Shown piece by piece: positions 530 to 42,032 of a stretch of DNA of 44,638 nucleotides. This DNA comes from a virus (lineage: Duplodnaviria > Caudoviricetes), in IMG/VR virus record IMGVR_UViG_3300048579_000191, positions 1 to 44,638 of that record. One strand, written 5' to 3'. The position numbers and the translations under genes were made by a program. Numbering within the stretch: position 1 is the stretch's first letter; each line of letters begins with the position of its first letter. The notes under the pieces were generated by a model that saw nothing but the letters and a program-made list of their open reading frames with translations, was not told where the DNA came from and made no database searches.

Positions 530-1129
530 TCACGCCTCCTCCCGCCGCAGCGCCCTCCATATCGGCGTGATCCGGCGGCGGATCGAACGGCTATCTGGCA
601 TCTTCTTGCCGTCCGACCGATCCGCGAACCAGTCCTGCATCTCGGCAACCAGCTCGGCTTGGGTGGCAGGCAGCCCGTGGTCATGGATCCGCACGATCAG
701 GGCAATGTTCATGCCCTCCCAATCGTAGGGCGTGGCAGCACCGGGCCCGCTCGGCACACGACGCACCATGTCGTTCTCTTCCTCGAAGCCATGCACTTCA
801 TCGGCCATGATCATCATGTCCGCAACCGTTACCGTGACCCCGCCGACAGGATCGGTGATGATCTGCCACTGGCTCTTCTCGCCCGTCATGATCCGGCGCA
901 CCACGCCTTCGGTCGGACCGGTTCCGCAGCGCCGGAACAGCGGCATGAGGTCCATCGGCGAGATGGCCACGCGACCGGCGACAATTTCCCCGCCGCAATG
1001 CACCAGGCCAATGCCGGTCATGATGTGAAATTTGCCCGCCGCGGCCCATCCCGCGACATCGGCGATGTTGCATCCCCAACGGGCCGTGACTTCCTGAAGG
1101 GTGTAGTAAACGCGTTGCGGCAAAGCCAT
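530..1129 (-). CDS. Hypothetical protein with a probable N-terminal excisionase/AlpA-like HTH
   Basis: 199-aa ORF with RBS-like GAGGA upstream. N-terminus YYTLQEVTARWGCNIADVAGW resembles a winged HTH. It is convergent with the integrase. Confidence 0.65.
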   Translation of the reverse strand: MALPQRVYYTLQEVTARWGCNIADVAGWAAAGKFHIMTGIGLVHCGGEIVAGRVAISPMDLMPLFRRCGTGPTEGVVRRIMTGEKSQWQIITDPVGGVTVTVADMMIMADEVHGFEEENDMVRRVPSGPGAATPYDWEGMNIALIVRIHDHGLPATQAELVAEMQDWFADRSDGKKMPDSRSIRRRITPIWRALRREEA

Positions 1130-1482
1130 GACAAATCATCCTCACATGAACCGAGGACGGGCCGAACTCATACCGCCTGCAGCCCGTGCCGGGGGCGGCA
1201 CGGGTTAAGTGATCGGGCGCAACGACACGAGAGGCGCCAAGGCACCTTCGGTCAGAGCGACTGGTGTTCCGATAGACCTGTTATGCTTTTGGTTGAGGGC
1301 TGCTCTCCTCAAGGATGCACCCTGACGCGGGCTTCGATTCGGAGCAAGGGGGTGGCCAGCACGATGCTGTGGATATCGTTTGAAGCTTCGGCGGTCGTCC
1401 GCTTCGCACGCACTAACAGCACTACATATAGTGAGAGATCGGTTTTGTAACATAGCTGGTTCGCTCGTGGCGAACTCGGGGC

Positions 1483-1511
1483 TTGAAATGGCGAACCAGG
1501 TGCTCTATCTA
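1483..1511 (+). promoter_or_regulatory. Putative sigma70 promoter of the retron operon
   Basis: TTGAAA (1483-1488), 17-bp spacer, TATCTA (1506-1511), directly upstream of a hairpin-rich region. Confidence 0.55.
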
Positions 1512-1517
1512 GCGATC

Positions 1518-1931
1518 AATGCTCAGGTGAGAGATAGCTGCCATAGGCTGATCGGTTCGCCGATCGAGGAGGCTCCGGCCTCTACCCACTTCGGGGCGTG
1601 GCGACCGCATCCGCGCGATGCGATCCGCGACGACGACCCGTCGACTTAAGTCCGCAGCTCGCGTTGCGGCACGGGGATACCTAGGAGATAGCCTCTGCCC
1701 TGATTGCCTCTTGGGAAGGCGGCACACTCGTCGGGATGGTCCCGGCGAGGAAGCCCAGGAGGTTGCGACATGGGTAATGAACCTGTGAAGCCCCTGAGCA
1801 CCGGGCAGTGGATCCGTCGCTGGATTCGGCGTGTTCTTCGGAAGCGTCGGACCTTGATGGTCGCGTTCTGGATGGTGAAAGCCATCGTGTATCTGGCGCG
1901 ACTCTTCTTCTGAGACGGCTCCTAGGTGTTC
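1518..1931 (+). ncRNA. Retron msr/msd-type structured RNA that also contains a small ORF
   Basis: Inverted repeat GGATACCTAGGAG (1675-1687) / CTCCTAGGTGTTC (1919-1931), 13 bp with 2 G-U pairs. The 5' arm is followed by ATAGC (candidate branching G1691). There are many short hairpins, and it lies just upstream of HTH + retron RT. The 5' boundary is inferred from the promoter. Confidence 0.7.
1770..1913 (+). CDS. 47-aa small protein (basic amphipathic segment + TM helix), candidate retron toxin/effector
   Basis: AGGAGG at 1757-1762, 7 nt before ATG 1770. Sequence MGNEPVKPLSTGQWIRRWIRRVLRKRRTLMVAFWMVKAIVYLARLFF. Confidence 0.7.
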   Translation: MGNEPVKPLSTGQWIRRWIRRVLRKRRTLMVAFWMVKAIVYLARLFF

Positions 1932-1953: not shown

Positions 1954-2262
1954 ATGCTGAATGAAGCTCTTCGCCTGGTTCGGGTCTACCACGACCTGTC
2001 GCAGGCAGACGTGGCCGAACGCGTCGGGCTTTCAAAATCCTATGTTTCGGAGATCGAGAGTGGCGAAAAGAACGTCTCTCTTGCGGTGCTGGAGAAGTAT
2101 TCCACTGCCTTCGATATTCCGATGTCATCGCTCATGCTGTTTGCAGAGCGCGTGGAGGGTGCTGGAAAGGCCGATGCCATCCGGGCCTACGTGGCTGACA
2201 AGGCGCTGAAAATGCTGGATTGGGCCGCGACAATCTCCGAGTATCGTGGGGCGGGCAGGTGA
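1954..2262 (+). CDS. XRE/Cro-CI family HTH protein, retron-associated
   Basis: LSQADVAERVGLSKSYVSEIESGEK is a typical HTH_3 motif. GGGAG RBS. Its stop overlaps the RT GTG start (GTGA). Confidence 0.92.
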   Translation: MLNEALRLVRVYHDLSQADVAERVGLSKSYVSEIESGEKNVSLAVLEKYSTAFDIPMSSLMLFAERVEGAGKADAIRAYVADKALKMLDWAATISEYRGAGR

Positions 2263-3170
2263 GCCACGACCGCAACCAGTCTATCCTGTACAAGGTAACA
2301 AGCCCGCATATGCTGGCGGATCGCCTGCTTATTTCCCGAGGGGAACTGGACGCGCTCCTTGCGGATGCCGACCCCTACAAGCGGTGGATCGACAAAAAGT
2401 CCGGTCGGGCAATCCAGGAACCTCGACCGAAGCTAGCAAAGGTACATCGCAGGATCGCAACCCTTCTGGCCAGGATCGACACGCCAGCCTACCTGCACTC
2501 GGCCAAGAAGGGGCGATCCTACATCTCCAATGCTGCAGCACATTCCGTCGACGACGGGTGCGTCAAGATCGACGTCCGGAGGTTCTATCCTTCAGCGAGG
2601 GCTCAGGCCGTCTATCACTTCTTCCTCGACCGGATGGCTTGCGACGGTGATGTTGCCGGAATGCTCGCGAAGCTTCTGACCGTGGACGGACATCTGCCAA
2701 CAGGCAGCAGCGCCAGCCCAATCGTTTCGTACTTCGCCTACGAGGACCTGTTTCATGAACTTGCGGTCTTGGCCGAAGCATCTGGCTGCAAGATGACCGT
2801 GTACGTCGATGACATTGTATTCACGGGGGCAGGGGCGACGCGGCGCCTCCTGTTTGAAGCCAGGAAGGCCATCGGCAAACGGCACCTTCATGGGCACAAG
2901 ACCAAGCTCTTTCGGCCCGGTCAGCCGCGGATCGTCACCGGAGTTGCTGTCACCAACAATGGCCTTCGGTTGCCGAACCGGCGCCAGGTCCACATTGCCG
3001 AGGACCAGAAGCTGTTCGATGACCTGCCACTTGGCCGCGAGAAGCTCATCGTCGCACGGCGGCTCACTGGACGCCTATTTGAAGCCAGCCAAATCGATGC
3101 AGGGTGGCGAGTGCGCGCTGAGGCCATGGCTGCCCTGCGCGATGATATTCAAAGAAAGATCGGTCGCTAG
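2259..3170 (+). CDS. Retron-type reverse transcriptase
   Basis: SYISNAAAH (retron NAxxH region X), KIDVRRFYPS, LPTGSSASP, YVDD catalytic motif, IVTGV (retron VTG region Y). Start placed at GTG 2259, coupled to the HTH stop. Confidence 0.95.
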   Translation: MSHDRNQSILYKVTSPHMLADRLLISRGELDALLADADPYKRWIDKKSGRAIQEPRPKLAKVHRRIATLLARIDTPAYLHSAKKGRSYISNAAAHSVDDGCVKIDVRRFYPSARAQAVYHFFLDRMACDGDVAGMLAKLLTVDGHLPTGSSASPIVSYFAYEDLFHELAVLAEASGCKMTVYVDDIVFTGAGATRRLLFEARKAIGKRHLHGHKTKLFRPGQPRIVTGVAVTNNGLRLPNRRQVHIAEDQKLFDDLPLGREKLIVARRLTGRLFEASQIDAGWRVRAEAMAALRDDIQRKIGR

Positions 3171-3192: not shown

Positions 3193-4533
3193 ATGGCTGA
3201 ACGCAACGATATTTCCAGCCTTTTGGCCTTCATCGGCCGAGAAGGTGACTGGCGCGAACGGCTGCAGGAGATTGTCGCCGAACACCTTATGCCCGCGCTG
3301 GAGGAATTCGAGATCGACCAAGACGGATTGGCCGACCTGCTGGGTGAGCAGTGGTCAGGCGTCCTATGGGGCTGCGGGTTCGAGGATTTCCTTGGCCAGC
3401 ACTATGAGGACGGCAACATCGTCGATCTCTATCTGAAGCGGCGCGGCTGGAAGGAAACGGCCTTGAACCGGGCCTATTTCACCGCGCTGCGGGATGCGCC
3501 GGTCAGCCTGTACGAAGTCAGCGAGGTCCAGCCCGGTGCATCGATGGTGCTGCGCGATTTGCTGTCAGATGCGGCACCGGTCACAGTGCGCGAGAAATCC
3601 GCCACGCGCACGCTGAAACAATGGGATAGGATTGCCGTTCGGGTGGTGGCCGAGCGCGATCACCATATCATCTCGGGGGCGCTGTTGCCCTTCCGCACCG
3701 AGGCGGTGGATTTTCTTTTCGCCGGTCTACGCGATGCCCTGAAGCTGAAGAAACGAGATGCGCTTCGGCTTTCGCACGATCAGCTGATGGGCTGCGCGCC
3801 CATCTTCACCGCCGCCTGGCTGTTCATCGAGATTGACCGTGCCCTCAGCCCGGCACAGCCGCAGTTCATCAATTCGGACGGCGACGATGTGCTGTTCCAC
3901 GATCTGCGGTACCCGCTTGCCAGCGGCGTGACGCAGAAAGCAGTGGCGGAGCGTCTGGACCGGGTGAAGGGCTTCCTGCCCGACGGGCCGAAGTTCTGGA
4001 ACTGGCTAGCTGCGCGGAAGGGGCGCGGCGGCAAGGCAGGCGGCGGCATCATGCTGGACACGCAGATGGAGGGGGCCACTGTTCTGGGTTCAGTCGAACT
4101 GAAGGGCAGGACGCTGCTCGTGACTGTTAACTCGGCCGAGCGGGTGGCGAAGGTCCAGGCGTTGATCGACGCTGCCGCGGGAGACCTGTTGAAATCACCT
4201 TTGACCACGATCCGGACAGTGGATCAGATGCGGGCCGACCAACGGCGTGATGGGCCAAGCGAAGCGACCGACGAAATCCCGCCAGAGATCGCGCGCCAGC
4301 TCATGCGGGATCACCTGGACAAGCACTACCGTGAAACGCTGGATGCGCCGATCCCGGCGCTGGGCGGCAAGTCACCACGGCAGGCTGTCCGGACGGCTGC
4401 GGGGCGCGAGAAGGTGATCGAGTGGCTGAAGATGCTGGAAAACCGCAGCGCCGGGCATGGCGAGGGGCCGATTGCAGAGTACGATTTCGGCTGGATGTGG
4501 GTCGAGCTTGGGCTGCTGGAACATCGCAAATGA
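3193..4533 (+). CDS. Conserved hypothetical protein with a C-terminal Xre/MbcA/ParS-like (DUF2384-type) domain
   Basis: 446 aa. C-terminal LDAPIPALGGKSPRQAVRTAAGREKVIEWLKMLE matches the MbcA/ParS C-terminal pattern. Starts 22 bp after the RT stop. Confidence 0.7.
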   Translation: MAERNDISSLLAFIGREGDWRERLQEIVAEHLMPALEEFEIDQDGLADLLGEQWSGVLWGCGFEDFLGQHYEDGNIVDLYLKRRGWKETALNRAYFTALRDAPVSLYEVSEVQPGASMVLRDLLSDAAPVTVREKSATRTLKQWDRIAVRVVAERDHHIISGALLPFRTEAVDFLFAGLRDALKLKKRDALRLSHDQLMGCAPIFTAAWLFIEIDRALSPAQPQFINSDGDDVLFHDLRYPLASGVTQKAVAERLDRVKGFLPDGPKFWNWLAARKGRGGKAGGGIMLDTQMEGATVLGSVELKGRTLLVTVNSAERVAKVQALIDAAAGDLLKSPLTTIRTVDQMRADQRRDGPSEATDEIPPEIARQLMRDHLDKHYRETLDAPIPALGGKSPRQAVRTAAGREKVIEWLKMLENRSAGHGEGPIAEYDFGWMWVELGLLEHRK

Positions 4534-4583
4534 AGGCCGACAAGACGGTCTGCGATGATGATCTGCGGGGGAGGGCGCGTGGG

Positions 4584-4604
4584 CTACATCAACACCACAT
4601 CAAC
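4584..4604. repeat. Arm-type integrase-binding repeat, copy 1
   Basis: CTACATCAACACCACATCAAC, a tandem of ACATCAAC units; 20/21 identical to 4856-4876. Confidence 0.65.
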
Positions 4605-4744
4605 CTGCGACTGCGGGCTTCGTGCCGGTCTTGCGTGTGAATACGTGCGAACGCTGATGACTGTGAGGACGAAAACTACGCCAGAACAAAGGCTTGCCCC
4701 GTAAGGCGCTGATTTCGACGATTATTCCGTTTTGCCCTTCCATG

Positions 4745-4791
4745 GGCTCATAACCTGAAGGTCGTAGGTTCAAATCCTACTCCCGCAACCA
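4745..4791 (+). pseudogene. 3' half of tRNA-fMet (CAT), att core duplication
   Basis: GGCTCATAACCTGAAGGTCGTAGGTTCAAATCCTACTCCCGCAACCA has the anticodon loop, T-arm and CCA. The 5' half (acceptor and D arms) is absent upstream. Confidence 0.88.
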
Positions 4792-4817
4792 AAAAATCTC
4801 GTCTTATCAAAGACTTC

Positions 4818-4845
4818 AAGGCCGAGCGTAACGCTCGGCTTTCTT
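4818..4845 (+). terminator. Intrinsic terminator after the tRNA fragment
   Basis: GCCGAGCG-TAA-CGCTCGGC hairpin followed by TTTCTT. Confidence 0.7.
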
Positions 4846-4855
4846 AGTTTGCAGT

Positions 4856-4876
4856 CTACATCAACGCCACATCAAC
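4856..4876. repeat. Arm-type integrase-binding repeat, copy 2
   Basis: CTACATCAACGCCACATCAAC, direct repeat of 4584-4604. Confidence 0.65.
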
Positions 4877-5011
4877 ACCGCAACAGAAAAACTGCACCTG
4901 CATGCAGTGGCGGGCATCCGCAGGCGCTGGAGGACAGAGCGAAGAAGATTGATCCTTCATGGAGCCAGTCAAGGCCCCATGCTCCATTAAGCTAAGCCTG
5001 ACCGGGGCGTC

Positions 5012-5767
5012 TCACATCCGCGGCGAGTCAGCTACGCTAAGAACACCAATTGAGCAGTCGTCTTCTGTCCTCGGCGAAAAGATTGACCGCAGATTCTCAT
5101 TCAGAATTGATGCCATTTTCTTGGCTGGGTTGGTCTCCGCCCAGGTAATGAGTGTTCCGACAGCGGATGCGATTTCCTGGCTGCTTTTCTTTACAAGGCT
5201 TCCGGATGCGCCATCGCTGCTGAGTAGGAACGTGCAAGGGCCATCGGTTTCGATGCGCCGCAGCTTCAAACTGGTTTCGGCACTAGTGCTTGTCACGAAA
5301 ACCGTTTGATTGATGAATTCTCCATTTTCGGGGTGAGATGCGACCGAAATTGTCCCTGAAGCCTTCATGAAAATGATTCCATCCCCCAGATGCCCGACCA
5401 GGGTCTTGCCGTTCTTGTGGGCAGCAAAAAGAAGCGTGCAAGCGTAAGAGTCCACGCCGTCGCGGGCGGAAAAACGCTTGCGCCGCAGACTGTCCAAGAT
5501 GCTGTTAATCAGGAAATGTTCAACCGTCGTACTTTCGATTGGCGACCTGCCAAGGTACAACGCATCGAAGTGGCGAACCAAAATCTCTGAAATCAGTTGC
5601 ACGCATGTACGTGCTCCGGTCCCAGAGTTCAGCTTTGAACCAGCGCCGTCCGCCAACACGATACATGCCGTGTCCCCCACCTGTCTGCCACCTACTGCGT
5701 CCTGACAGGCACCGCGAACTTGAGGCTTGCTCCGGCCGGGCACAGCAGCGAATGAAATCCTAAACAC
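5012..5767 (-). CDS. PP2C-family Ser/Thr phosphatase (TerY-P triad)
   Basis: CQDA, VLADGAGS, CTLL, HLGDG, LLSSDG and EDDCS motifs. GTG start abuts the vWA stop. Confidence 0.92.
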   Translation of the reverse strand: MFRISFAAVPGRSKPQVRGACQDAVGGRQVGDTACIVLADGAGSKLNSGTGARTCVQLISEILVRHFDALYLGRSPIESTTVEHFLINSILDSLRRKRFSARDGVDSYACTLLFAAHKNGKTLVGHLGDGIIFMKASGTISVASHPENGEFINQTVFVTSTSAETSLKLRRIETDGPCTFLLSSDGASGSLVKKSSQEIASAVGTLITWAETNPAKKMASILNENLRSIFSPRTEDDCSIGVLSVADSPRM

Positions 5768-6442
5768 TTAGACCGACGCCCAGCTGCTCATCGCGCTTGT
5801 ATCGAGGCTAACCTTGTCTCCAGGGGTTGACTGGGAAACTCGCGAAACTGACGCGCTCAGCCAAACGAAGAATTCCTGGAAGCTCAACCCCTTCAACTTC
5901 ATGGCGGCGCGCCCACCTGACAATGAGGCGAGGGTGGACATATCTGCCCCGTTTCCTATGCCGATGGCGAAGACCGCAAGTTTCTTGCCGTTCACTTGAT
6001 CATTGATGAGGCCCTTTGCCTTGGCGATATCATCGGTCGGTGATCCGTCAGTCATGAGGACTATCCATGGCTGGAAGTAGTCCACGCCCGCATTCTTGTA
6101 TTCGGCTTTTCGTGCCTCCAGAACTCGCAGTGCCTGTTCGATGGCTTCACCCATAGGAGTGGAACCCGTGGCCTTCAGAGACGGGATCTGTTGCCGTTGG
6201 ATTGATGCAAAATCCAATGCGAGATCAACGGTACCGCCGAATGTTACGATCGCCACTTCCGCCGAATATTGTGCGACTTCATCCTCCAGAACCGCTGCGA
6301 AGAATGTCTCGACACCTGACTGCAGTTCCTTGATCGGCTCCCCAGCCATCGATCCGCTGACGTCGAGGACAAGGCAGACAGGAAGCCTCGCAGTAGGGTT
6401 TTCGACAAGTTCTTCCTGACGAAGGATGAAGTCGTTCGGCAT
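5768..6442 (-). CDS. terY: TerY-like vWA domain protein
   Basis: MIDAS motif LDVSGSMAG, TPMGEA, YFQPWIVLMTDG and the TerY-type end FQEFFVWLSASVSRVSQSTPG. Confidence 0.9.
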   Translation of the reverse strand: MPNDFILRQEELVENPTARLPVCLVLDVSGSMAGEPIKELQSGVETFFAAVLEDEVAQYSAEVAIVTFGGTVDLALDFASIQRQQIPSLKATGSTPMGEAIEQALRVLEARKAEYKNAGVDYFQPWIVLMTDGSPTDDIAKAKGLINDQVNGKKLAVFAIGIGNGADMSTLASLSGGRAAMKLKGLSFQEFFVWLSASVSRVSQSTPGDKVSLDTSAMSSWASV

Positions 6443-6454
6443 TTTGAATGATCC

Positions 6455-8491
6455 TTATTTTGCCACTTTGGATAACAGCCACAGCAGAAATAGTATGACC
6501 GGGATGCTCAGCCATTTAAGCCAGACTACAAGCGCTCCCACTACTCCAAGTAGTACGACTGCGCCGACCAGTCCTGCAGCCTTGCTACTGGGTGCCTGCG
6601 CTGTTCCTGGAGTGGGATTTGGCTGCTTGCTCGTCCGAGAGGGACCACCGGATGTCGGGTTGGTCTGTCTCGATGTCCTGCTGGAAGCATTCGATTTCGG
6701 CCACGCCCAGCCGCCATTCTGTGTCGATGAAGCCACGGTAGGCTTGGCTGCTAATCTACCTTGCTCCCGCGCCGCTGTTTGTGCACTAAACGCCAATCGC
6801 TTCAGTTCGTTTGTACGAGCGCATTGTGGACAAACAAGACGTCTTCCAGCGGATTGTTTTTGTTCCAACTCTTGCTTGTGGATTTTGAAAGCTTTTCCGC
6901 AGCCAGTCTCAGAGCAGACTGCGTCTACCGCGTCTCCGGCCGCAATCTTCAGGCCGGTCGGGAATATCTCGGTCGTGGTGTAGCCAACCTCAAGCAGCCT
7001 TCGATACTCGGTCAGCAGGGGGAGCCAAAAAGAAATTGGATGACGTTTCCCTTCTTTGAACGTCTGGTGAAATGCTTCCTTCACCTTGAAAGGCAGATGA
7101 CTCCAGATAAAACGCCAAGGGCCGGACGCAACATTCTTGCTTCTATGCTCTTCCCCGAATGGGTATGGAAACTCACCTTGCATGATATTCTGTGCTTGAG
7201 ACTCTCCACCCTGCTGTGAGTAAGGAGGCTTCCCAGGAAGCAGGATCATGAATAGCATAGTTGCTACTGAAAATAGTTCAGCTTCCTTGGTTTTGAGCTT
7301 GCTGTACTCTCCCTGAGCCAAGACTTCTGGCGCCGAGAAGTTCACAGTTCCGACCGGACATGGAAAGCCTTCGATCTGGTAGCTATCAACATCAACGAAG
7401 TAGACATCCGAACCGTCGCCAGTTACTAGGCAATTCAGCGGGTTGATATCACCAACCAAGACGTTGATTGAGTGAAGAAATTCGATCTTTCTTAAAAATG
7501 ATATGCATATGTTAACAAGGTTCTTTCTGTCCCAGTTGGGAAACTTCTTTTCAAGAAGTGGCTTGGTAAACACCGACTTTTGTAGCGGCTGACCTAGAGC
7601 CGCAGGCATCGTATAGCCGATGAACTCACCTGCCGCATTTGACAACAAATCCTTGGGCCAGCATATTCCGTCAAAAATGATATCTCGAGACGTCATGAGT
7701 TCCAATTTTGCGAGGCGCCGTTTTGTGATCTTTTCGGGAAAGTAGATTTTCGCGACTTGCGTGCTGTCTTTGATTCTGAAAACTTCTCCTTCACCCCCTT
7801 TACCGACCGATTCCCCGAGCGTAATCATCTTCCCATTCGATCGCAAAATTGCTATTTCGCCACTGGCCGAAATGCGGCTTGTGGGAATTATCTCATCGGA
7901 TATTGTCGAGACTGACGCAGCCAGTTGAAATGGCCTAACCTTGGGCATCGAAAGTTCGACCCTGCGTGACCCCTGAGCATCGTCTTGTTGTTCCTTTGGG
8001 CGCTTGGGGATGTTTGGCGTCCAAATCACTGCTCGGATGCCCTCCAGCTCGGCCGCTACCTTGTTGGGGCCATCTCGGGTTACCAAAATGAAGTCGTAGT
8101 CCTTCGCAACCTCTCGAATCTTGGAGTCGTTGTTGCTAACCGTCCCAAAGGTCGTGCGCGAAATAAGAAACAAGAACGCACCGTTCAGGTTGTACCTGAA
8201 AAATTGATCGCCGTCTTTTGGGGTGGTCCCATCGGGGAAGCATGCGACGGGCTCCGGGCTTACATTTTTCAGCCACTGAAAGATTCTCTTGATGTTGTCT
8301 TTCTCGGGTTGACGCTCTTGCTTCTTCTTTTGATAGTCAAGCTCATCAAGAATTGTCTTTGTTATGACAGGAAAACCAATTGCGTTTGCGCGTGAGATCA
8401 CGTCCGCATCCAACATAAGAACGCAAGTATCTAAGATGGCGCATTCTTTGGCGGGTTTGTTCTTGGTCACTTCCGCGCTGGGTCGCTGCAA
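6455..8491 (-). CDS. PIN domain - Ser/Thr kinase - Zn ribbon - TM fusion protein (TerY-P kinase variant)
   Basis: PIN: ILDTCVL, LDELD, NNDSKI, LVTRD. Kinase: GKGGEGEVF, VAKIY, GDINPLN, VDVDS. Zn ribbon: CSETGCGKAF...VCPQC. Ser/Thr/Pro linker and hydrophobic C-terminus. Start uncertain (TTG 8491 or GTG 8470). Confidence 0.85.
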   Translation of the reverse strand: MQRPSAEVTKNKPAKECAILDTCVLMLDADVISRANAIGFPVITKTILDELDYQKKKQERQPEKDNIKRIFQWLKNVSPEPVACFPDGTTPKDGDQFFRYNLNGAFLFLISRTTFGTVSNNDSKIREVAKDYDFILVTRDGPNKVAAELEGIRAVIWTPNIPKRPKEQQDDAQGSRRVELSMPKVRPFQLAASVSTISDEIIPTSRISASGEIAILRSNGKMITLGESVGKGGEGEVFRIKDSTQVAKIYFPEKITKRRLAKLELMTSRDIIFDGICWPKDLLSNAAGEFIGYTMPAALGQPLQKSVFTKPLLEKKFPNWDRKNLVNICISFLRKIEFLHSINVLVGDINPLNCLVTGDGSDVYFVDVDSYQIEGFPCPVGTVNFSAPEVLAQGEYSKLKTKEAELFSVATMLFMILLPGKPPYSQQGGESQAQNIMQGEFPYPFGEEHRSKNVASGPWRFIWSHLPFKVKEAFHQTFKEGKRHPISFWLPLLTEYRRLLEVGYTTTEIFPTGLKIAAGDAVDAVCSETGCGKAFKIHKQELEQKQSAGRRLVCPQCARTNELKRLAFSAQTAAREQGRLAAKPTVASSTQNGGWAWPKSNASSRTSRQTNPTSGGPSRTSKQPNPTPGTAQAPSSKAAGLVGAVVLLGVVGALVVWLKWLSIPVILFLLWLLSKVAK

Positions 8492-35614: not shown

Positions 35615-36937
35615 CTAACCTTGTAGTCTGGCGCCCTTCTTCCCCGTCGCCATCTCCCACCGCCGCACGGCCACGTCGCAATAGACCGGGTCCAGTTCCA
35701 TCGCATAGCAGCGCCGCCCAGCGCGTTCGGCGGCGACGATCTGGGTGCCAGAGCCGCAGAACGGCTCGTAAATCAGGTCGCCGGGATCCGAGAACGCCGT
35801 CAGCACCGCCTCGACCAGCGCCACCGGGAACACCGCCGGATGCGATCCTGCCGCACCCAACCCGCCTTTGTGTCGCATGATCCGGAATACGCTGTCAGGA
35901 ATGCGGTGGCTTTGGATCGCGTTGCCGGTGCCGGTCTTGGCGTGCACGGTACCGTCGGCCCCGCGCAGCCCACCGCCGCCGAGGGTTTCGCCTGCGTGCT
36001 TGGACGGGACCGTCTTGTGAGGTTTGCGGGGCGCGCGGTTGAAGTGGAAAATGAACTCGTGCGACGGGGCCAGACGGCCGTTCCAATCGCCCGGCAATCC
36101 GGGGCCCTGATCCCAGACATACCAGCCAAATCGCCGCCAGCCAGAGCCGCGCATCCATTCGACCCATCCTTCCCAATAGGGCTGCCATTCGCTGTCGCGG
36201 TGCACGAGGCCGAGGTTGACCAGAACCTGCGCGTCCGCTGTGACTGGGGCGGCGGCGAACACGCCCTGCATCAACGCATCCCAATCGCCGACCTTTTCCT
36301 TGGCCGCGCCATAGTCGCGCTGCTGGGCATAGGGTGGCGAGGTGAACATCAGCGCGGCTTCTGTACCCTGCATCAACCTAGCGACAGCTGCCGGATCGGT
36401 GGCATCGCCGCAGCATAGCCGATGCTTGCCCAGCGCCCAGATGCCGCCCGGCTTGGTGATCGGTTCGGCGGGCGGTTCTGGTATGGCATCTGCTGCGTCG
36501 TCGGAAATCGCCTGTCGGTCGTCGGCATCGGCAAGCAGCGCGTCCAGCTCATTCTCGGAGATCCCGATCAGCCCGAGGTCAAAATCCTCGGCAAGCAGCG
36601 CCTGCAGCTCTTGAAGAAGCAGTGCCTCGTCCCAGCCGCCCAACTCGGTCAGTTTGTTGTCCGCGATGCGATAGGCCCGGCGTTGGGCTTCGGTCAGGTG
36701 GCCGAGCACGATGACCGGGGCCTCGGTCATTCCCAGATGGGCCGCCGCCAGAATGCGGCCATGGCCAGCGATCAACTCCCCGTCGGCGGCCACCAGCACC
36801 GGCACGGTCCAGCCAAACTCGGCCATGCTGGCCGCGATCTTGGACACCTGATCGGCGTCGTGGGTCTTGGCGTTGCGGGCGTAGGGTTTCAGCCGGGCGA
36901 GGGGCCAAAGTTCGATCCGGTCGGGTGGCATCATCAT
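35615..36937 (-). CDS. ParB-like N-terminal domain + N6/N4 amino-DNA methyltransferase
   Basis: LKPYARNAKTH, LIAGHGR, TSPPY catalytic motif, HPAVFP, EPFCGSGT. Confidence 0.93.
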   Translation of the reverse strand: MMMPPDRIELWPLARLKPYARNAKTHDADQVSKIAASMAEFGWTVPVLVAADGELIAGHGRILAAAHLGMTEAPVIVLGHLTEAQRRAYRIADNKLTELGGWDEALLLQELQALLAEDFDLGLIGISENELDALLADADDRQAISDDAADAIPEPPAEPITKPGGIWALGKHRLCCGDATDPAAVARLMQGTEAALMFTSPPYAQQRDYGAAKEKVGDWDALMQGVFAAAPVTADAQVLVNLGLVHRDSEWQPYWEGWVEWMRGSGWRRFGWYVWDQGPGLPGDWNGRLAPSHEFIFHFNRAPRKPHKTVPSKHAGETLGGGGLRGADGTVHAKTGTGNAIQSHRIPDSVFRIMRHKGGLGAAGSHPAVFPVALVEAVLTAFSDPGDLIYEPFCGSGTQIVAAERAGRRCYAMELDPVYCDVAVRRWEMATGKKGARLQG

Positions 36938-37437
36938 CGCGCGGGTTCGGCCAGCGGCGTGCAGATGATCAGCGTGGTTCGGCCGGGGAGATACCAGCTT
37001 GGGAAATCCTCGGGCCAGGTGACGCAAAGCCCGTAAAGCGCAGCCGTGGCCATGGTATCCTGACGCTTCGCAGCATCGAAGTTGCCGTAGAGATGGGCTG
37101 CCACCGCGGCGGCTTTCCTGTCCTTGCGGTAGAAATACCCGTGATCGACGAGCTCACGCGGCCAGGGATCGACGTGATATCCGCGCCCATTGAACAAGCC
37201 GCGCCGCGCCAGCACCGAGGGTGAAAAGTCCGATTTCGACAATCGCCAGCCATGACGCTCGCCGAACAGCATGGCGAGGCGCTGACGCGTGGCGCGCAAA
37301 TCCTGATAAATGGCGTCGCTCTGACGTTGGCCTTTCGCGTCGCAGAATTTCTGCTGATAGTCAGTCACCGCGCTGGCGAGAGCGGCAATTTCGTCAGGGC
37401 TTGTTGCAGCTTGCTGGAGGACGAAGGGTCTGTTCAT
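36934..37437 (-). CDS. Hypothetical protein between the two methylases
   Basis: 167 aa (MNRPFVLQQ...), ATGA-coupled at both ends. Confidence 0.7.
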   Translation of the reverse strand: MNRPFVLQQAATSPDEIAALASAVTDYQQKFCDAKGQRQSDAIYQDLRATRQRLAMLFGERHGWRLSKSDFSPSVLARRGLFNGRGYHVDPWPRELVDHGYFYRKDRKAAAVAAHLYGNFDAAKRQDTMATAALYGLCVTWPEDFPSWYLPGRTTLIICTPLAEPAR

Positions 37438-38693
37438 GCTGCCAGCCTCTTGGCCTTCAGGTCGGCGAAGGTTTCGCCGGTGTCCGCCAGCACGGCATTG
37501 GCGCCGGTGAATTGCTGCCAGCGATCGATCGCCACATCGACATAGGCCGGGTTCAACTCGATCCCGAAGCAAACACGCCCGGTCGTTTCCGCCGCGATCA
37601 ACGTGGTGCCGGATCCCATAAAGGGTTCGAACACCGCCTGACCCGGGCTGGAATTGTTCAGGATAGGGCGGCGCATGCACTCGACCGGCTTCTGGGTGCC
37701 GTGGACGGTGGCGGCATCCTGATCCTTGCCGGAAATGTGCCACAGCGTCGTCTGCTTGCGGTCCCCCGCCCAATGGCCCTTGCCGGTCTTTTTGACCGCA
37801 TACCAGCAAGGTTCGTGCTGCCAATGGTAATCGCCGCGGCTCAGCACAAGCCGGTCCTTGGCCCAGATGATCTGCGACCGGACGGCGAAACCTGCTGCCA
37901 GCAGGCTTTCTGCCACGGTCGTGGCGTGCAGCGCGCCGTGCCAGACATAGGCCACGTCACCGGGGAACAGCGCCCACGCTTCGCGCCAGTCGGCCCGGTC
38001 GTCGTTCAGCACCTTGCCGGTGCGTTTGGTTTTTGCCGCACCCGCCTGGTTGCGCCAGGACGGGTCGTATTCCACGCCATAGGGTGGGTCGGTGACCATC
38101 AGCAGCGGGCGCACATCCCCCAGCAACCGCCCGACCACATCAGCGGAGGTGCTGTCACCGCAGATCAGCCGGTGCGATCCGAGCTGCCAGAAATCGCCTG
38201 CCACCGACACTGGCGTGACCGGCGGTTCGGGGATGTCGTCCTCACCCTCGATTGCACTGACTTCTGCCTGATCCGGATCGCGCAGCAGGGCGTCCAGATC
38301 TTCGTCGGTGATCCCGAGAAGCGACAGGTCAAAATCCTCGGCCAGCAGCCCCGCGATTTCGTCGCGCAGCATCGCCTCGTCCCACTCGCCCAACTCGGTC
38401 AGCTTGTTGTCTGCGATCCGGTAGGCCCGGCGTTCGGCTTCATCGAGGTGGCCGAGCCGGATCACCGGCACCTCGGTCAGCCCCAGCATGATGGCGGCCA
38501 ACACCCGGCCGTGCCCCGCGATCAGTTCACCATCGTCGGCCACCAGGCACGGCACGGTCCAGCCGAACTTCGCCATGCTGGCCGCGATCTTGGCGACCTG
38601 GTCCGTGCCGTGGATCTTGGCGTTGCGCGCATAGGGGCGCAGCCTGTCGATCGGCCAGGTTTCAATCTGGTTCGGCGCAAAGACCAGGTCCAT
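37434..38693 (-). CDS. ParB-like N-terminal domain + N6-adenine DNA methyltransferase
   Basis: LRPYARNAKIH, LIAGHGR, TDPPY, HGTQKP, EPFMGSGT. Confidence 0.94.
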   Translation of the reverse strand: MDLVFAPNQIETWPIDRLRPYARNAKIHGTDQVAKIAASMAKFGWTVPCLVADDGELIAGHGRVLAAIMLGLTEVPVIRLGHLDEAERRAYRIADNKLTELGEWDEAMLRDEIAGLLAEDFDLSLLGITDEDLDALLRDPDQAEVSAIEGEDDIPEPPVTPVSVAGDFWQLGSHRLICGDSTSADVVGRLLGDVRPLLMVTDPPYGVEYDPSWRNQAGAAKTKRTGKVLNDDRADWREAWALFPGDVAYVWHGALHATTVAESLLAAGFAVRSQIIWAKDRLVLSRGDYHWQHEPCWYAVKKTGKGHWAGDRKQTTLWHISGKDQDAATVHGTQKPVECMRRPILNNSSPGQAVFEPFMGSGTTLIAAETTGRVCFGIELNPAYVDVAIDRWQQFTGANAVLADTGETFADLKAKRLAA

Positions 38694-38900
38694 CGGGTAG
38701 CTTTCATATGGGGCAGGGCGGGCAAGCCGATGCGCGCCGGGCGATGCCAGCGTCAGGATCAGGATCCGCGATGTCGGGAAATCAAAAGCGCCCGCGAGGG
38801 GGTTCCTCCGGGCGCACTTCTTCGATGATCAAGGGGTAGGTCAAGATGGGCAGCTTTGTCAAATGAAAAAATGAAGTGGATTCAACAGCTTCAATGCAGG

Positions 38901-39132
38901 TGGCTTCCGCTGCCTGGCTTCCGACGTGGTGGCTTCCGCAAACTGGCTTCCCTGGATTCCGCAAAGAATCCAGCGAGCCAAGATCGTGATTCCGCAACCC
39001 TTTGATAACGAGTCGCTTTTCCCGAGGTCACCCGGCAGGTGGATTCCGCCTGGCTTCCCCGGTGCGACTGCCTGTCGCTAGCGAAACGCCGCGCTGCGCC
39101 CCCCCGCATACAAACAGGGCCGGGGAGGAACC
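38901..39132 (-). other. Putative cos (packaging) site with repeats and an IHF site
   Basis: Lambda cos-like sequence at 39132-39079, seven TGG(C/A)TTCC repeats, and IHF consensus TATCAAAGGGTTG (39007-38995). Confidence 0.55.
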
Positions 39133-39239
39133 ATGCCAGGGGGGTAGTCAAGAAACGAAAGCGCCCGAGACGGTTTCCTCCAGGCGTAAATCTTCGCGGG
39201 TCAGCGAGCAGGCCAATCGGGCAGGGTTGTCAGGGGTTA

Positions 39240-40097
39240 TCAGGAGCGACGTATCGGAATGGCTTCGGAAACTTTTTGAACTGCTCCGTCCCGGACCACT
39301 TCTGTTGTTCTGACCGTCTCGACGCCTGCGTGCCCAACTGTGATCCTGACATTGTTCAGTTCTGCGGGCATGCCACCAAAGCAGCGGCTGAGGGCATCAA
39401 GAAAGCCAACGTTAGCGATTGGCTGCGGGTTGGGACTGGCGTTATTCCTCGGGCTTGGTACGGTCGAGGGAAATAGATAGATGCATGGCGGCGGCAGACG
39501 ATATGGGCCGACTTCCGTGAAACGCTCTGGGTTGTTGATGACTTTGGGACACGGCCGAGAGATCGTGCCGCAGATCCAGTCCCAAACGATCAGACCATCG
39601 ACGCGCTGATTTCTCGAAATGATTTCTGCAGAAAGTCGTGTGTGGATCCCTGACCAAACGTTGTGGCGCGGATCGGCACCGGGGTTCGAACAGACGCTCC
39701 AAAGAATGAATTCATCAGCATGTGAAGGGCGTTCGAATATGTTTGTGTTGTTCCCGTCCAAGCACCCTTTCAATTCTACGACAGATGTTCGGCCGTCATT
39801 CAGCGTTATGCTGTAATCGTGGCGATTTTCACCACCCGCTGACATCCAATCTTCGATCAATGCTTGGTCTTGCATGTGATTGAGAATGGCCGCGACGAAG
39901 TCGCGCTTCGGCCGCATCGTTGCAGAAAACTGGCCGCGAATGCGTTCAATGCTTCCGCGAAATAGCCCGGACTGATAGAAATCGTGCTCTTCTAGGCCAT
40001 GAGTCCCGAGCGTGTGCGATTGAGTTTTCAGGACCTCGGCAAACTCGACGATTAAGTCCCGAAGGGCCTCATTTTTCGCGCACGGAATCACACTCAT
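39240..40097 (-). CDS. Putative type II restriction endonuclease
   Basis: RHDY...VVELKG fits PD-(D/E)xK; overlaps the 3' end of a C5 methyltransferase gene. Confidence 0.65.
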   Translation of the reverse strand: MSVIPCAKNEALRDLIVEFAEVLKTQSHTLGTHGLEEHDFYQSGLFRGSIERIRGQFSATMRPKRDFVAAILNHMQDQALIEDWMSAGGENRHDYSITLNDGRTSVVELKGCLDGNNTNIFERPSHADEFILWSVCSNPGADPRHNVWSGIHTRLSAEIISRNQRVDGLIVWDWICGTISRPCPKVINNPERFTEVGPYRLPPPCIYLFPSTVPSPRNNASPNPQPIANVGFLDALSRCFGGMPAELNNVRITVGHAGVETVRTTEVVRDGAVQKVSEAIPIRRS

Positions 40098-41229
40098 CTG
40101 TCTCTCTTTCTTCATTAATCTTGTGAGAGACTATCGGTTCGATGATGTGCTTTGCAATATGCCGAACCACCGGCACCGCGACGCCGTCGCCCGTCAGATG
40201 ATAGGCTTCGTTGTAGGCCTCTGGCAGCATGTATGCATCCGGAAGCCCCATCAGCCGCGCGGTTTCCCGGGTTGAAATGAGGCGCGAACGGATCAATTCG
40301 CCCTCGACCACCAGGATGGACTGGCGGGATGATCCGCCGCCAGGTGTGCGAAGACAGCCCGCAATGTCGTCGAAACGAACTTCAGCGCGCTGAACTTTGA
40401 CCCCCTGTTGAAAACGGGTTCGCTTGTAAACGCCGCCAACCATCCGCACCCCGGACGCCTGGGCGGTTTTGACCTTCGCCAGGTTGACCTCCGACATCAT
40501 CGACAGCAGTTGGCGTGTTTCTGCCTTCGTGTGCCAGCGCACTGAAGCTGGAGCTTCTTCAATAACATCCGCAAAACGCATCTCCCGACGATCTGGCTTT
40601 GGCATCTTCCACCAGATCCAGTTGTGCTGAAGTCGCTCAGGGAGGGCACAATACGACCGACGAAGCGCAGTAGTGTGCCACGGTTGAGATGGGCCGTCCG
40701 AAGCGCCAACGACCTTTACATCACTGCGCGTCGCGATGACGAATAGTCTGGGCCTAGACTGCGGGACAAAGAGTTCAGCATCTACGACAACTGCCCCATA
40801 CTTGTAGCCCAGACCGTCAAGGGCTTCACAGATGGCTGTGAAGTCCTTTCCGGCATGGCTTGTCAGAGTGCCAACAACATTTTCCAATGTCACAACCTTC
40901 GGCGCGCGATCATCATCCTTCAATGATTGGATCTGCGAGATGAATGGCCAGAAAGTGCCTGATCTATCACCGCGCAGGCCAGCGCCGCCGCCAGCCAACG
41001 ACAGGTCTTGGCACGGGAAAGATCCCCACACCAAATCTGCAGTTCCTGGCAGGTCTTCAGGTGCTATGTTGCGAATGTCATCGACAACCAGTTCGGATTG
41101 ACCCCAGTTGCGTTTGTAGGTTTCGCCTTTCTTGCGGTCAAAGTCATTGGCGAACAAACACTTCCAGTCTGCGCCAAGCCCGGCCCTTGCCATACCTGCA
41201 CCAGCAAAAAATTCATAAAAGCTAGGCAT
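40069..41229 (-). CDS. DNA (cytosine-5) methyltransferase
   Basis: FFAGAG (I), GSFPCQDLS (IV), LENV (VI), QSRPR (VIII), ETARLMGLP (IX), GDGVAVPV (X). Confidence 0.95.
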   Translation of the reverse strand: MPSFYEFFAGAGMARAGLGADWKCLFANDFDRKKGETYKRNWGQSELVVDDIRNIAPEDLPGTADLVWGSFPCQDLSLAGGGAGLRGDRSGTFWPFISQIQSLKDDDRAPKVVTLENVVGTLTSHAGKDFTAICEALDGLGYKYGAVVVDAELFVPQSRPRLFVIATRSDVKVVGASDGPSQPWHTTALRRSYCALPERLQHNWIWWKMPKPDRREMRFADVIEEAPASVRWHTKAETRQLLSMMSEVNLAKVKTAQASGVRMVGGVYKRTRFQQGVKVQRAEVRFDDIAGCLRTPGGGSSRQSILVVEGELIRSRLISTRETARLMGLPDAYMLPEAYNEAYHLTGDGVAVPVVRHIAKHIIEPIVSHKINEERETDECDSVREK

Positions 41230-41336
41230 TCGTCACTCCCGGTTCGTGTCTGTTGTGCCCTAGTCAAGAGAACATTTCAAGATTTTTAGCCCAGAAATCC
41301 TGCGCAAAGGTTGACATGGGGTTTGGACTGCCCGGT

Positions 41337-42032
41337 TTAGGGGAAAGTGTGTGCACCCATTACGGGTTTGTGTCGGCTTGGCAACCATGGCCGCACCTTC
41401 GGCATCGCCGCCGTCACATCCATATCTCGCAGCATCCCGCCTGCCACCAGCCCATCGCGCACCCAATCCAGCCCCTGCCACCAATCGTCATATCCGCGTC
41501 GTGCGGATGCGATCTGCTCCGGATGCGGTCGCCACATGACCGGGCAGGCGAGAATCTCCACGCTGCGCCAGCGCCCGCGATGCAGGACGCGTTCCACGCC
41601 CACCACGACCGTGGTGGATCGCTCACCATGCTGGTTGGTCTTGGTTTCCACTGGCACGCAGCGCGGCACGACGCCCGGTAGCCAGTCGGGCGTCATGCCC
41701 CCACGCGCCAGTTCGGCGATGTAGATCGCCATGCGTTTGCCGCCCAAGCTATCTGGCATCCCGGCCAAAGTCGCGGCCACGATCTCAGCATCCTCATGGG
41801 TGTAGGACTGCGATTTATGGCCACCGCCGTCGACCTTGCATCCCAATCGCGCACGCTGGATCAGCACGTATTCCATGCCAAATCCGAAGCCTTCTTCGTC
41901 GATGTCCCGCCGCAGCGGCAGGTCCAACTGCGCCTTTTCCACCCGGAACGTCCATTCCAACGCCGCCTGCACGCCCAGTGCGCGTTTGACCTTTTTGCCG
42001 CCTGCACCCCCAATCCGTCCTTGCATGCTCAT
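41337..42032 (-). CDS. Conserved phage hypothetical protein (position of a late regulator)
   Basis: 231 aa, last gene of the replication/methylase operon; YTHEDAEIVA motif. Function inferred from position only. Confidence 0.7.
   Translation of the reverse strand: MSMQGRIGGAGGKKVKRALGVQAALEWTFRVEKAQLDLPLRRDIDEEGFGFGMEYVLIQRARLGCKVDGGGHKSQSYTHEDAEIVAATLAGMPDSLGGKRMAIYIAELARGGMTPDWLPGVVPRCVPVETKTNQHGERSTTVVVGVERVLHRGRWRSVEILACPVMWRPHPEQIASARRGYDDWWQGLDWVRDGLVAGGMLRDMDVTAAMPKVRPWLPSRHKPVMGAHTFP

What the first reader, a model, noticed from the sequence alone, without database searches (positions are those of the whole stretch)
1675..1931. Toxin-like small ORF enclosed by the retron a1/a2 arms, with its RBS locked in a stem
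Seen: the 13-bp arms (1675-1687 / 1919-1931) enclose the whole ORF 1770-1913. Its AGGAGG pairs with an anti-SD (GCCTCTTGGG 1706-1715 with CCCAGGAGGT 1754-1763), closing over a 10-bp hairpin (1727-1749). Also, 1692-1700 can pair with 1803-1811, and the coding region folds (cUUCGg hairpin near 1828-1850, GAAA-capped stem 1860-1902). The peptide is Arg/Trp-rich plus one TM helix. Inference: one RNA is both RT template and repressed toxin mRNA, so reverse transcription or msDNA could act as the translation switch. I recall a similar arrangement reported for a Vibrio type VI retron, so novelty needs checking.
Basis: partly seen in the sequence, partly recalled or inferred. Interest (0 to 1): 0.9.

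Follow-up and report, generated by a model that had tools for sequence, protein, structure and literature searches.

The report
Latched toxin message of type-VI retron
A temperate phage carries a type VI retron, a recently described kind of anti-phage system, whose RNA encloses the gene for a likely toxic small protein; relatives keep two features absent from the two papers' text, a short pairing predicted to latch the gene's ribosome site shut and a palindrome likely bound by the system's own regulator.

Summary
The structures are real. The 13-bp arms, 47-aa ORF, anti-SD helix, inner hairpin and 1692/1803 helix sit as described and track their own partners across 38 loci (permutation p<1e-4). 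The locus is an SP-HTH-RT type VI retron (PADLOC RT_VI E 2e-76, HTH_VI E 2e-34), so the layout is the published Retron-Vpa2/Sen3 one. This scan met another member earlier on other DNA.

One correction: the arms enclose only the toxin module. The msr hairpins and likely template (about 1550-1674) lie upstream of the 5' arm.

Two family-wide features are not in the text of either preprint (figures unseen):
(1) A 5' leader hexamer (1537-1542) is complementary to the loop of the RBS stem (1718-1723): 22 of 24 loci versus 29% cross-locus, 5 of 6 held-out. In folding models, holding that loop lifts the anti-SD helix from at most 0.05 to at least 0.87.
(2) A C-protein-like operator, TTCGC-N5-GCGAA, just upstream of the -35 box (34 of 42; held-out 8 of 9).

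In this clade the msDNA-matching repeat has moved from the hairpin loop to its foot. Toxicity, msDNA and switching are untested; Sen3-type control after translation stays open.

The parts
1460..1474 (+). Palindrome TTCGC-N5-GCGAA, candidate operator of the retron HTH, 8 nt upstream of the -35 box
   Evidence: 34 of 42 loci with at most 1 mismatch; 113 of 8400 shuffles; 1 of 44 downstream controls; only perfect copy in the window; 8 of 9 held-out loci. HTH binding is inferred.
1483..1511 (+). Putative sigma-70 promoter: TTGAAA 1483-1488, 17 nt, TATCTA 1506-1511; second half-site GCGAA at 1491-1495; start near 1517-1520
   Evidence: A TTG-type hexamer follows the palindrome at 5-9 nt in 32 of 34 loci. 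The consensus scanner did not call this site. Inferred.
1537..1542 (+). 5' leader anti-repeat GCTGCC, complementary to 1718-1723 (predicted pseudoknot 'latch')
   Evidence: compensatory one-base indel against L011/L110/L112 and L137
1550..1583 (+). Two msr-type hairpins (1550-1565; 1568-1583)
   Evidence: Pairs with changes on both sides in alignment A2; tandem hairpins seen by eye in most loci
1584..1674 (+). Likely msd template of about 90 nt, ending in hairpin 1652-1669 (loop TCGC); 7-nt repeat GCGGCAC at its foot, 1666-1672
   Evidence: Position by analogy with Vpa2 and Sen3; hairpin found by rule in 41 of 42 loci; 98% and 87% identical to L004 and L005, against 87% and 68% for the RT gene
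1675..1687 (+). IR1, the 5' arm
1692..1700 (+). 5' strand of the helix with SP codons 12-14 (1803-1811)
   Evidence: (p<1e-4)
1706..1715 (+). Anti-SD strand, pairing 1754-1763
   Evidence: (p<1e-4)
1718..1725 (+). Riboregulator loop (R2): leader target GGCGGC 1718-1723 and repeat GCGGCAC 1719-1725
   Evidence: Single-stranded in the consensus fold
1727..1749 (+). Inner 10-bp hairpin
   Evidence: Pair probability 0.76-1.0; changes on both sides at 6 of 9 consensus pairs
1770..1913 (+). Small protein SP, 47 aa, net charge +10, hydrophobic/amphipathic C-terminal helix; likely toxin; SD 1757-1762
   Evidence: A 45-78 aa ORF with SD stands in the same place in the 42 loci analysed; frame-preserving indels of 3, 27 and 6 nt; no Pfam or PADLOC model; toxicity by analogy only
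1919..1931 (+). IR2, the 3' arm
1954..2262 (+). Cro/C1-type HTH protein, 102 aa
   Evidence: PADLOC HTH_VI E 2e-34, next Control_protein E 9e-13; best PDB hits C.BclI E 6e-9 and, third, C.AhdI
2259..3170 (+). Retron reverse transcriptase, 303 aa from an inferred GTG
   Evidence: PADLOC RT_VI E 2e-76, next type E 5e-35; motifs NAAAH, YVDD, VTG

Best explanation
This is a type VI retron (small protein, HTH, reverse transcriptase) on a temperate phage, whose likely single RNA of about 425 nt carries a likely template upstream of the arms and, between the arms, a likely toxin gene whose ribosome site is predicted to be latched shut until the reverse-transcribed DNA would release it. Shown by sequence and homologues: gene order, family assignment, the four helices, the leader-loop complementarity and the promoter palindrome. 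Inferred OFF state: the 5' leader (1537-1542) pairs the loop of the RBS stem (1718-1723). This removes a competing fold, stabilises the anti-SD:SD helix and ties the RT/HTH-bound msr end onto the RBS stem. Inferred trigger, by analogy with Vpa2: phage recombination or RecBCD-inhibiting proteins let msDNA accumulate. Its 5' end carries the complement of GCGGCAC, which overlaps the leader's footprint and reaches 2 nt beyond it, so it would displace the leader. SP would then be translated and arrest the infected cell. Inferred in parallel: the HTH would bind the palindrome next to the -35 box and set the operon's own transcription, as controller proteins of restriction systems do.
For: Family: motifs. 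Helices pair better with their own partner than with other loci's (n=38, p<1e-4 each; two controls p=0.65 and 0.30). Repeat between msd hairpin loop and RBS-stem loop: at least 6 nt in 27 of 41 loci versus 8% of 1640 cross pairs. Leader:loop helix: 22 of 24 versus 29%; peak only at the leader position, GC-matched cross 33%, 18 different 5-mers; held-out 5 of 6 versus 23%. The leader fits R2 better than the msd copy in 17 of 24, equal 4, worse 3. Holding R2 raises the anti-SD helix from at most 0.05 to at least 0.87 and raises SD pairing in 13 of 37 loci, lowers it in 2. Operator; its loss tracks changes in the HTH recognition helix (Fisher p=0.001; 0.007 with near-duplicates collapsed). Vpa2 experiments. 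An RNA-library contig covers 1527-1943 in one study (a weak hint, contigs do not show ends).
Against: No function was measured. In this clade the msd loop (TCGC) does not match R2; the 7-nt match is at the hairpin foot, and 4% of cross-locus pairs give a foot match that long. Folding models say that anything holding R2 tightens the RBS, so msDNA binding R2 would not open it by base pairing alone; the release step needs something more. Blocking other windows (1724, 1804) raised the opening cost as much as blocking R2. RBS opening cost is ordinary for this window. Sen3 has a similar RNA layout but control after translation. The leader window and the recognition-helix motif were chosen after seeing the data; only the leader and palindrome rules were retested on held-out loci. 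L002 breaks one terminal pair of the latch. The priming G was not found.
Confidence: 0.58

Rival explanations
1. Sen3-type control: SP is made constitutively and held by the HTH. The RNA folds are an RT scaffold, and the loop repeat has decayed in this clade because msDNA no longer controls translation.
For: Sen3 has a predicted sequestered RBS and IR1/IR2 yet constitutive SP neutralised by HTH. The loop repeat is lost in the window's clade, nested 100/96 inside relatives that keep it. RBS opening cost is ordinary.
Against: SP is 47 aa and lacks the roughly 25-residue N-terminal extension described for the Sen3 lineage. The anti-SD and the latch are kept through compensatory changes in this very clade. 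The foot match has the same overlap with the leader footprint as the outgroups' loop match.
Confidence: 0.24
2. Release in cis: reverse transcription and RNase H cutting of the template, or msDNA annealing to the template, sever the link between leader and R2. The 6-bp latch falls apart and R2 is left free rather than bound by DNA.
For: Freeing R2 lowers the RBS opening cost by 3.5 kcal/mol and collapses the anti-SD helix in the model. This clade keeps the latch though the loop repeat is gone.
Against: It does not explain why the msd loop and R2 change together in 27 of 41 loci. In 22 of 37 loci the anti-SD pairing hardly depends on R2.
Confidence: 0.12
3. The leader:R2 (or leader:msd-loop) helix is the true a1/a2 priming helix. 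The leader sits where a1 sits in canonical retrons, and an RT primed there would copy through and unzip the anti-SD.
For: The order leader, two msr hairpins, msd, partner matches the canonical a1-msr-msd-a2 order (canonical order recalled). No conserved G follows IR2 (by eye).
Against: Vpa2 msDNA is 86 nt with its 5' end at the repeat hairpin, not in the riboregulator. No conserved G directly follows the leader hexamer (by eye).
Confidence: 0.06

Closest known systems
Retron-Vpa2, type VI, hybrid RNA (Zhang et al., bioRxiv 10.1101/2025.10.22.683967)
   Same: SP-HTH-RT order; SP inside inverted repeats on one RNA with the template upstream; RBS and start codon in stems; 7-nt repeat between the msd 3' hairpin and the riboregulator loop; short SP with hydrophobic C-terminus; HTH Arg7; template length about 90 versus 86 nt.
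   Different: Host relatives are Paracoccaceae; RNA about 425 versus 470 nt; the repeat lies at the foot, not in the loop, of the msd hairpin. The leader:loop pairing and the promoter palindrome are not in the paper's text (figures and supplements not seen). The Vpa2 sequence was not obtained, so no direct alignment.
Retron-Sen3, type VI lineage cl2075 (Garcia-Rodriguez et al., bioRxiv 10.64898/2026.04.27.721009)
   Same: IR1 at the 3' end of the template and IR2 after the SP stop; structured SP coding region; a conserved 5' stem-loop; sequestered RBS.
   Different: Sen3 SP is 79 aa with an N-terminal extension, is made constitutively and is neutralised by HTH; the text mentions no direct repeat, pseudoknot or operator.
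Controller (C) proteins of restriction-modification operons (C.BclI, C.AhdI; Sorokin et al., PMC2632904)
   Same: Closest solved relatives of the HTH; a strong palindrome just upstream of the -35 box and a weaker site inside the promoter.
   Different: The motif TTCGC/GCGAA has no match in that paper's text; the HTH gene lies about 480 nt downstream, behind an RNA and a toxin gene; the type VI HTH also binds RT.

Membership tests
Type VI retron | RT of the type VI group with retron motifs | tested here: met
   RT_VI E 2e-76 versus next type E 5e-35; NAAAH, YVDD, VTG
Type VI retron | Cro/C1 HTH directly upstream of or overlapping the RT | tested here: met
   HTH_VI E 2e-34; 4-nt overlap with the inferred RT start
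Type VI retron | Small protein upstream of the HTH | tested here: met
   cluster (cl2075, cl2760, cl3272, cl3897 or 'Large') could not be assigned
Type VI retron | Structured msr-msd upstream of SP, inverted repeats flanking SP | tested here: met
Type VI retron | RT-dependent ssDNA and phage defence | not testable with these tools
   Needs bench work
Canonical retron ncRNA | a1/a2 enclose msr-msd with a branching G after a1 | tested here: not met
   The 13-bp arms enclose SP; the msr hairpins are upstream; no conserved G after IR2 (by eye)
Vpa2-type translational switch | RBS sequestered in a conserved stem | tested here: met
   Covariation p<1e-4, consensus fold; single-sequence energy unremarkable
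Vpa2-type translational switch | Direct repeat in the loop of the msd hairpin and in the riboregulator loop | tested here: inconclusive
   Loop match only 4 nt in the window; 7-nt match at the hairpin foot; loop match of at least 6 nt in 27 of 41 loci
Vpa2-type translational switch | One abundant transcript spanning template and SP | tested here: inconclusive
   Contigs from RNA libraries cover 1527-1943, 1568-2461 and 1687-2291 in three studies; a fourth gives one contig over the whole stretch. Contigs show neither ends, strand nor level.
Vpa2-type translational switch | msDNA needed and sufficient for SP translation; SP toxic | not testable with these tools
   Bench only
Sen3-type HTH-SP toxin-antitoxin | SP with N-terminal extension (about 79 aa) | tested here: not met
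   47 aa against the description
Sen3-type HTH-SP toxin-antitoxin | Constitutive SP neutralised by HTH | not testable with these tools
   Bench only
C-protein autoregulation | Palindromic operator just upstream of the -35 box plus a weaker proximal site | tested here: met
   a half-site with at most 1 mismatch in the spacer in 21 of 34 loci (counted)
C-protein autoregulation | The protein binds the site and changes transcription | not testable with these tools
   Only indirect:

The most novel reading that the evidence does not exclude
Type VI retrons are three-strand lock-and-key switches. A 5' leader latches the toxin RBS through a pseudoknot and the msDNA is a sequence-matched key that displaces it. 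Latch, lock and key change together as a private code in each lineage, and in this clade the key has jumped from the loop to the foot of its hairpin. The HTH is also a C-protein-like transcription factor for the operon, so phage action on it would shift transcription, reverse transcription and translation together.
Probability: 0.35. Interest if true: 0.72.

Novelty: new member of a known kind. Interest (0 to 1): 0.5.

Why it matters
The arrangement itself is published. The Vpa2 authors leave open which sequence elements let msDNA switch on translation. The leader:loop pairing gives a specific six-base answer that compensatory mutations can test. The palindrome offers a DNA-binding role for an HTH so far treated only as an RT partner or antitoxin, and may bear on why HTH mutants are toxic. 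A riboregulator with a short, swappable code that answers to ssDNA would also be useful for engineering. The locus adds a phage-borne alphaproteobacterial member with a natural variant of the repeat.

Tried and rejected
Library searches: Rfam gave no match in 1100-2400 or 4500-5100. SP has no Pfam or PADLOC model, and the protein search found only 10 close relatives (89-98% identity). The longer 69-aa frame from TTG 1704 was rejected: no SD, and homologues start at the ATG.

Structure prediction: the HTH-SP complex job gave no verdict (score 0.00) and is not used as evidence either way.

Getting the reference loci: a scan for the Sen3 SP start found 4 unrelated contigs. The Vpa2 sequence was not in the census supplements searched. 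So neither reference system was tested directly.

More relatives: family-level searches around L110 and L112 and a repeat class search gave no new loci. The pattern scan gave 2 hits on contigs already held and 2 chance hits.

Ideas dropped: R2 as a conserved anti-anti-SD (seen only near this clade, by eye; in 22 of 37 loci holding R2 changes little); a branching G after IR2 (not conserved); a conserved TM helix. The predicted msDNA shows no unusual DNA fold (z=0.06). The promoter scanner missed the inferred promoter. Contig depths were not used to rank expression.

Full report
Observation. A 13-bp helix between the upstream region and the post-stop stretch arose in 4 of 300 shuffles. On the single sequence, however, the anti-SD helix has probability 0.02-0.05, and opening the RBS window costs no more than at several other genes of this GC-rich window (4 of 19 higher, 1 equal). 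The C-terminal segment is hydrophobic but holds two basic residues, and 22 of 42 homologues reach a 19-residue hydropathy of 1.6. An amphipathic helix is as likely as a transmembrane one.

What it is. Downstream lie an HTH (PADLOC HTH_VI, E 2e-34) and an RT (RT_VI, E 2e-76; next type E 5e-35) with NAAAH, YVDD and VTG. The window is a virus record with integrase, terminase, portal, capsid and tail genes. The closest named relatives are in Tabrizicola, Paracoccus and Defluviimonas. In L004, L064 and L065 the shared block starts at about 1450, at the palindrome described below. The non-coding RNA is better kept than the RT gene: 97-100% versus 87% to L004, 87-92% versus 68% to L005.

Homologue set. 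From I kept 42 (window included) with RT, HTH, a called SP and enough upstream sequence. I dropped 15 duplicates or near-duplicates, 7 with short upstream sequence, 4 that my parser mis-set, 2 with no SP called (L023, L029), and all loci without an HTH hit. SP starts were picked by eye. Four further near-duplicates were left out of the permutation tests. Nine more loci (L131 lacked an HTH hit and was left out) served as a held-out set.

Covariation. Windows for IR1:IR2, the post-IR1:coding helix and anti-SD:SD pair better within a locus than across loci (n=38; -22.3 vs -16.9, -21.7 vs -16.8, -16.2 vs -11.3 kcal/mol; no permutation of 10,000 reached the observed mean; controls p=0.65 and 0.30). 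The own partner ranked first in only 6-10 of 38. So the template lies upstream of the arms, as described for Vpa2 and Sen3. A contig from one RNA library covers 1527-1943; two other studies give 1568-2461 and 1687-2291, and a fourth gives one contig over the whole stretch. This is only a weak hint.

The repeat. The Vpa2 authors propose that a 7-nt repeat lets msDNA bind the riboregulator loop. Here the loop of the last msd hairpin matches the riboregulator by at least 6 nt in 27 of 41 loci versus 8% of 1640 cross pairs (the rule picked the wrong hairpin in a few loci, which count as misses). The window is an exception: its loop TCGC gives 4 nt, and a 7-nt match, GCGGCAC, lies at the hairpin foot (1666-1672 and 1719-1725). 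A foot match that long occurs in 4% of cross pairs. The five such loci in the tree form a clade (100/96) nested among relatives with GCGCAC in both loops (49 of 51 rows, L032 and L050 left out; midpoint root), so the state looks derived. It may be a shift of register or a decay.

A third strand. By eye a 5-8-nt segment of the 5' leader is complementary to the riboregulator loop. In the window it is GCTGCC (1537-1542) against GGCGGC (1718-1723); L011, L110, L112 and L137 have GCGCC against GGCGC, a compensatory indel. Tests: loose windows, n=30, p<1e-4, controls p=0.33 and 0.89; loop defined only by the repeat, 22 of 24 versus 29%; signal confined to the leader position, 33% in GC-matched cross pairs, 18 different 5-mers, but only 16 of 24 loci at p<=0.1 singly; held-out 5 of 6 versus 23%. 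The leader fits the riboregulator copy better than the msd copy in 17 of 24. The helix crosses the arms and the anti-SD stem, so nested folding cannot show it. Holding 1718-1723 raises the anti-SD helix to 0.87-0.99 and strengthens SD pairing in 13 of 37 loci, weakens it in 2. This supports a latch for the OFF state. It also means msDNA bound to the same loop would not open the RBS by pairing alone, and two other windows raised the opening cost as much.

The operator. TTCGC-N5-GCGAA with at most one mismatch stands 258-358 nt before the SP start in 34 of 42 loci, 113 of 8400 shuffles, 1 of 44 downstream controls and 8 of 9 held-out loci. A TTG-type hexamer follows at 5-9 nt in 32 of 34, often with a half-site in the spacer. 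The HTH's best solved relative is C.BclI and its third C.AhdI, and a distal site next to the -35 box plus a weaker proximal one is the controller-protein layout (PMC2632904, passages). Of 43 loci with the palindrome 40 have the usual recognition-helix motif; of 8 without, 3 do (p=0.001; 0.007 collapsed). The motif was defined after seeing the data, and L014's copy lies before the HTH rather than at the promoter.

Mechanism. Most likely (0.58) a Vpa2-like switch: latch and anti-SD keep SP off, triggered msDNA displaces the leader, SP arrests the cell, and the HTH also regulates the promoter. The structure is shown by comparison; every functional step is inferred. Rivals are Sen3-type control after translation (0.24), release in cis by cutting of the template (0.12), and the latch as priming helix (0.06).

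Literature. Zhang et al.: parts 1-4 of 8 (abstract to discussion) read, plus term searches with no hit for operator, palindrom, pseudoknot, kissing or autoregul. Garcia-Rodriguez et al.: parts 1-8 of 9 read; no hit for the same terms or for direct repeat. Figures and bioRxiv supplements were not visible; Fig. S4 of the Vpa2 preprint may already show the leader pairing. Searches listed no other mechanistic paper on type VI retrons or their promoter (listings only; most subscription journals are not held). Khan et al. (PMC10849725): supplement search only. Mestre et al. 2020: not read, cited through the preprints. The canonical a1-msr-msd-a2 order is recalled.

Verdict. Interest 0.5 rests on the two family-wide elements and the shifted repeat, all testable with a few mutations.

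Noticed in passing
window 4741-4791: Looks by eye like the 3' part of a tRNA gene; similarity to L001-L003, L064 and L065 ends at 4791-4799, so it is a likely attachment site. ARAGORN and Rfam found no gene.
   Followed up: partly
window 3193-4533 (+): 446-aa gene directly behind the RT with a weak C-terminal Xre/MbcA/ParS hit (E 1e-3); present in L001-L003, L064, L065 but largely missing in L004.
   Followed up: partly
window 5012-8491 (-): Three genes resembling a kinase, a vWA/TerY-like protein and a phosphatase-like protein (weak PADLOC hits): probably a second defence cargo (TerY-P-like triad; label recalled).
   Followed up: no
window 530-1129 (-): 199-aa gene of unknown function (phrog_13283) next to the integrase, divergent from the retron promoter.
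   Followed up: no
window 1568/1583 and homologues: The second msr hairpin is closed by a G-U pair in many loci (by eye; 8 of 8); a G at 1566 between the two hairpins is a candidate branch point.
   Followed up: partly
window 1583-1592 with 1938-1948: In some folds the HTH ribosome site pairs just downstream of the second msr hairpin, as described for Sen3; not supported in the consensus fold.
   Followed up: partly
L064 and L065, SP end: The SP stop codon is changed and the frame runs 4 codons further into IR2, ending at its TAG, as in L011, L110 and L112.
   Followed up: no
L014, just before the HTH start: A copy of the palindrome sits in front of the HTH gene while the promoter copy has 2 mismatches.
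   Followed up: no
L039, upstream of the msd hairpin: Promoter, leader and msr appear replaced by unrelated coding-like sequence while the repeat pair and SP remain.
   Followed up: no
L128, L129, L130: Type VI-like RTs match in 17 annotated phage records, including Peduoviridae and a Shewanella phage; the SP gene is unannotated in L128 and L130.
   Followed up: partly
window 35615-43291 (-): Four DNA methyltransferase-like genes, two with ParB-like N-terminal parts.
   Followed up: no
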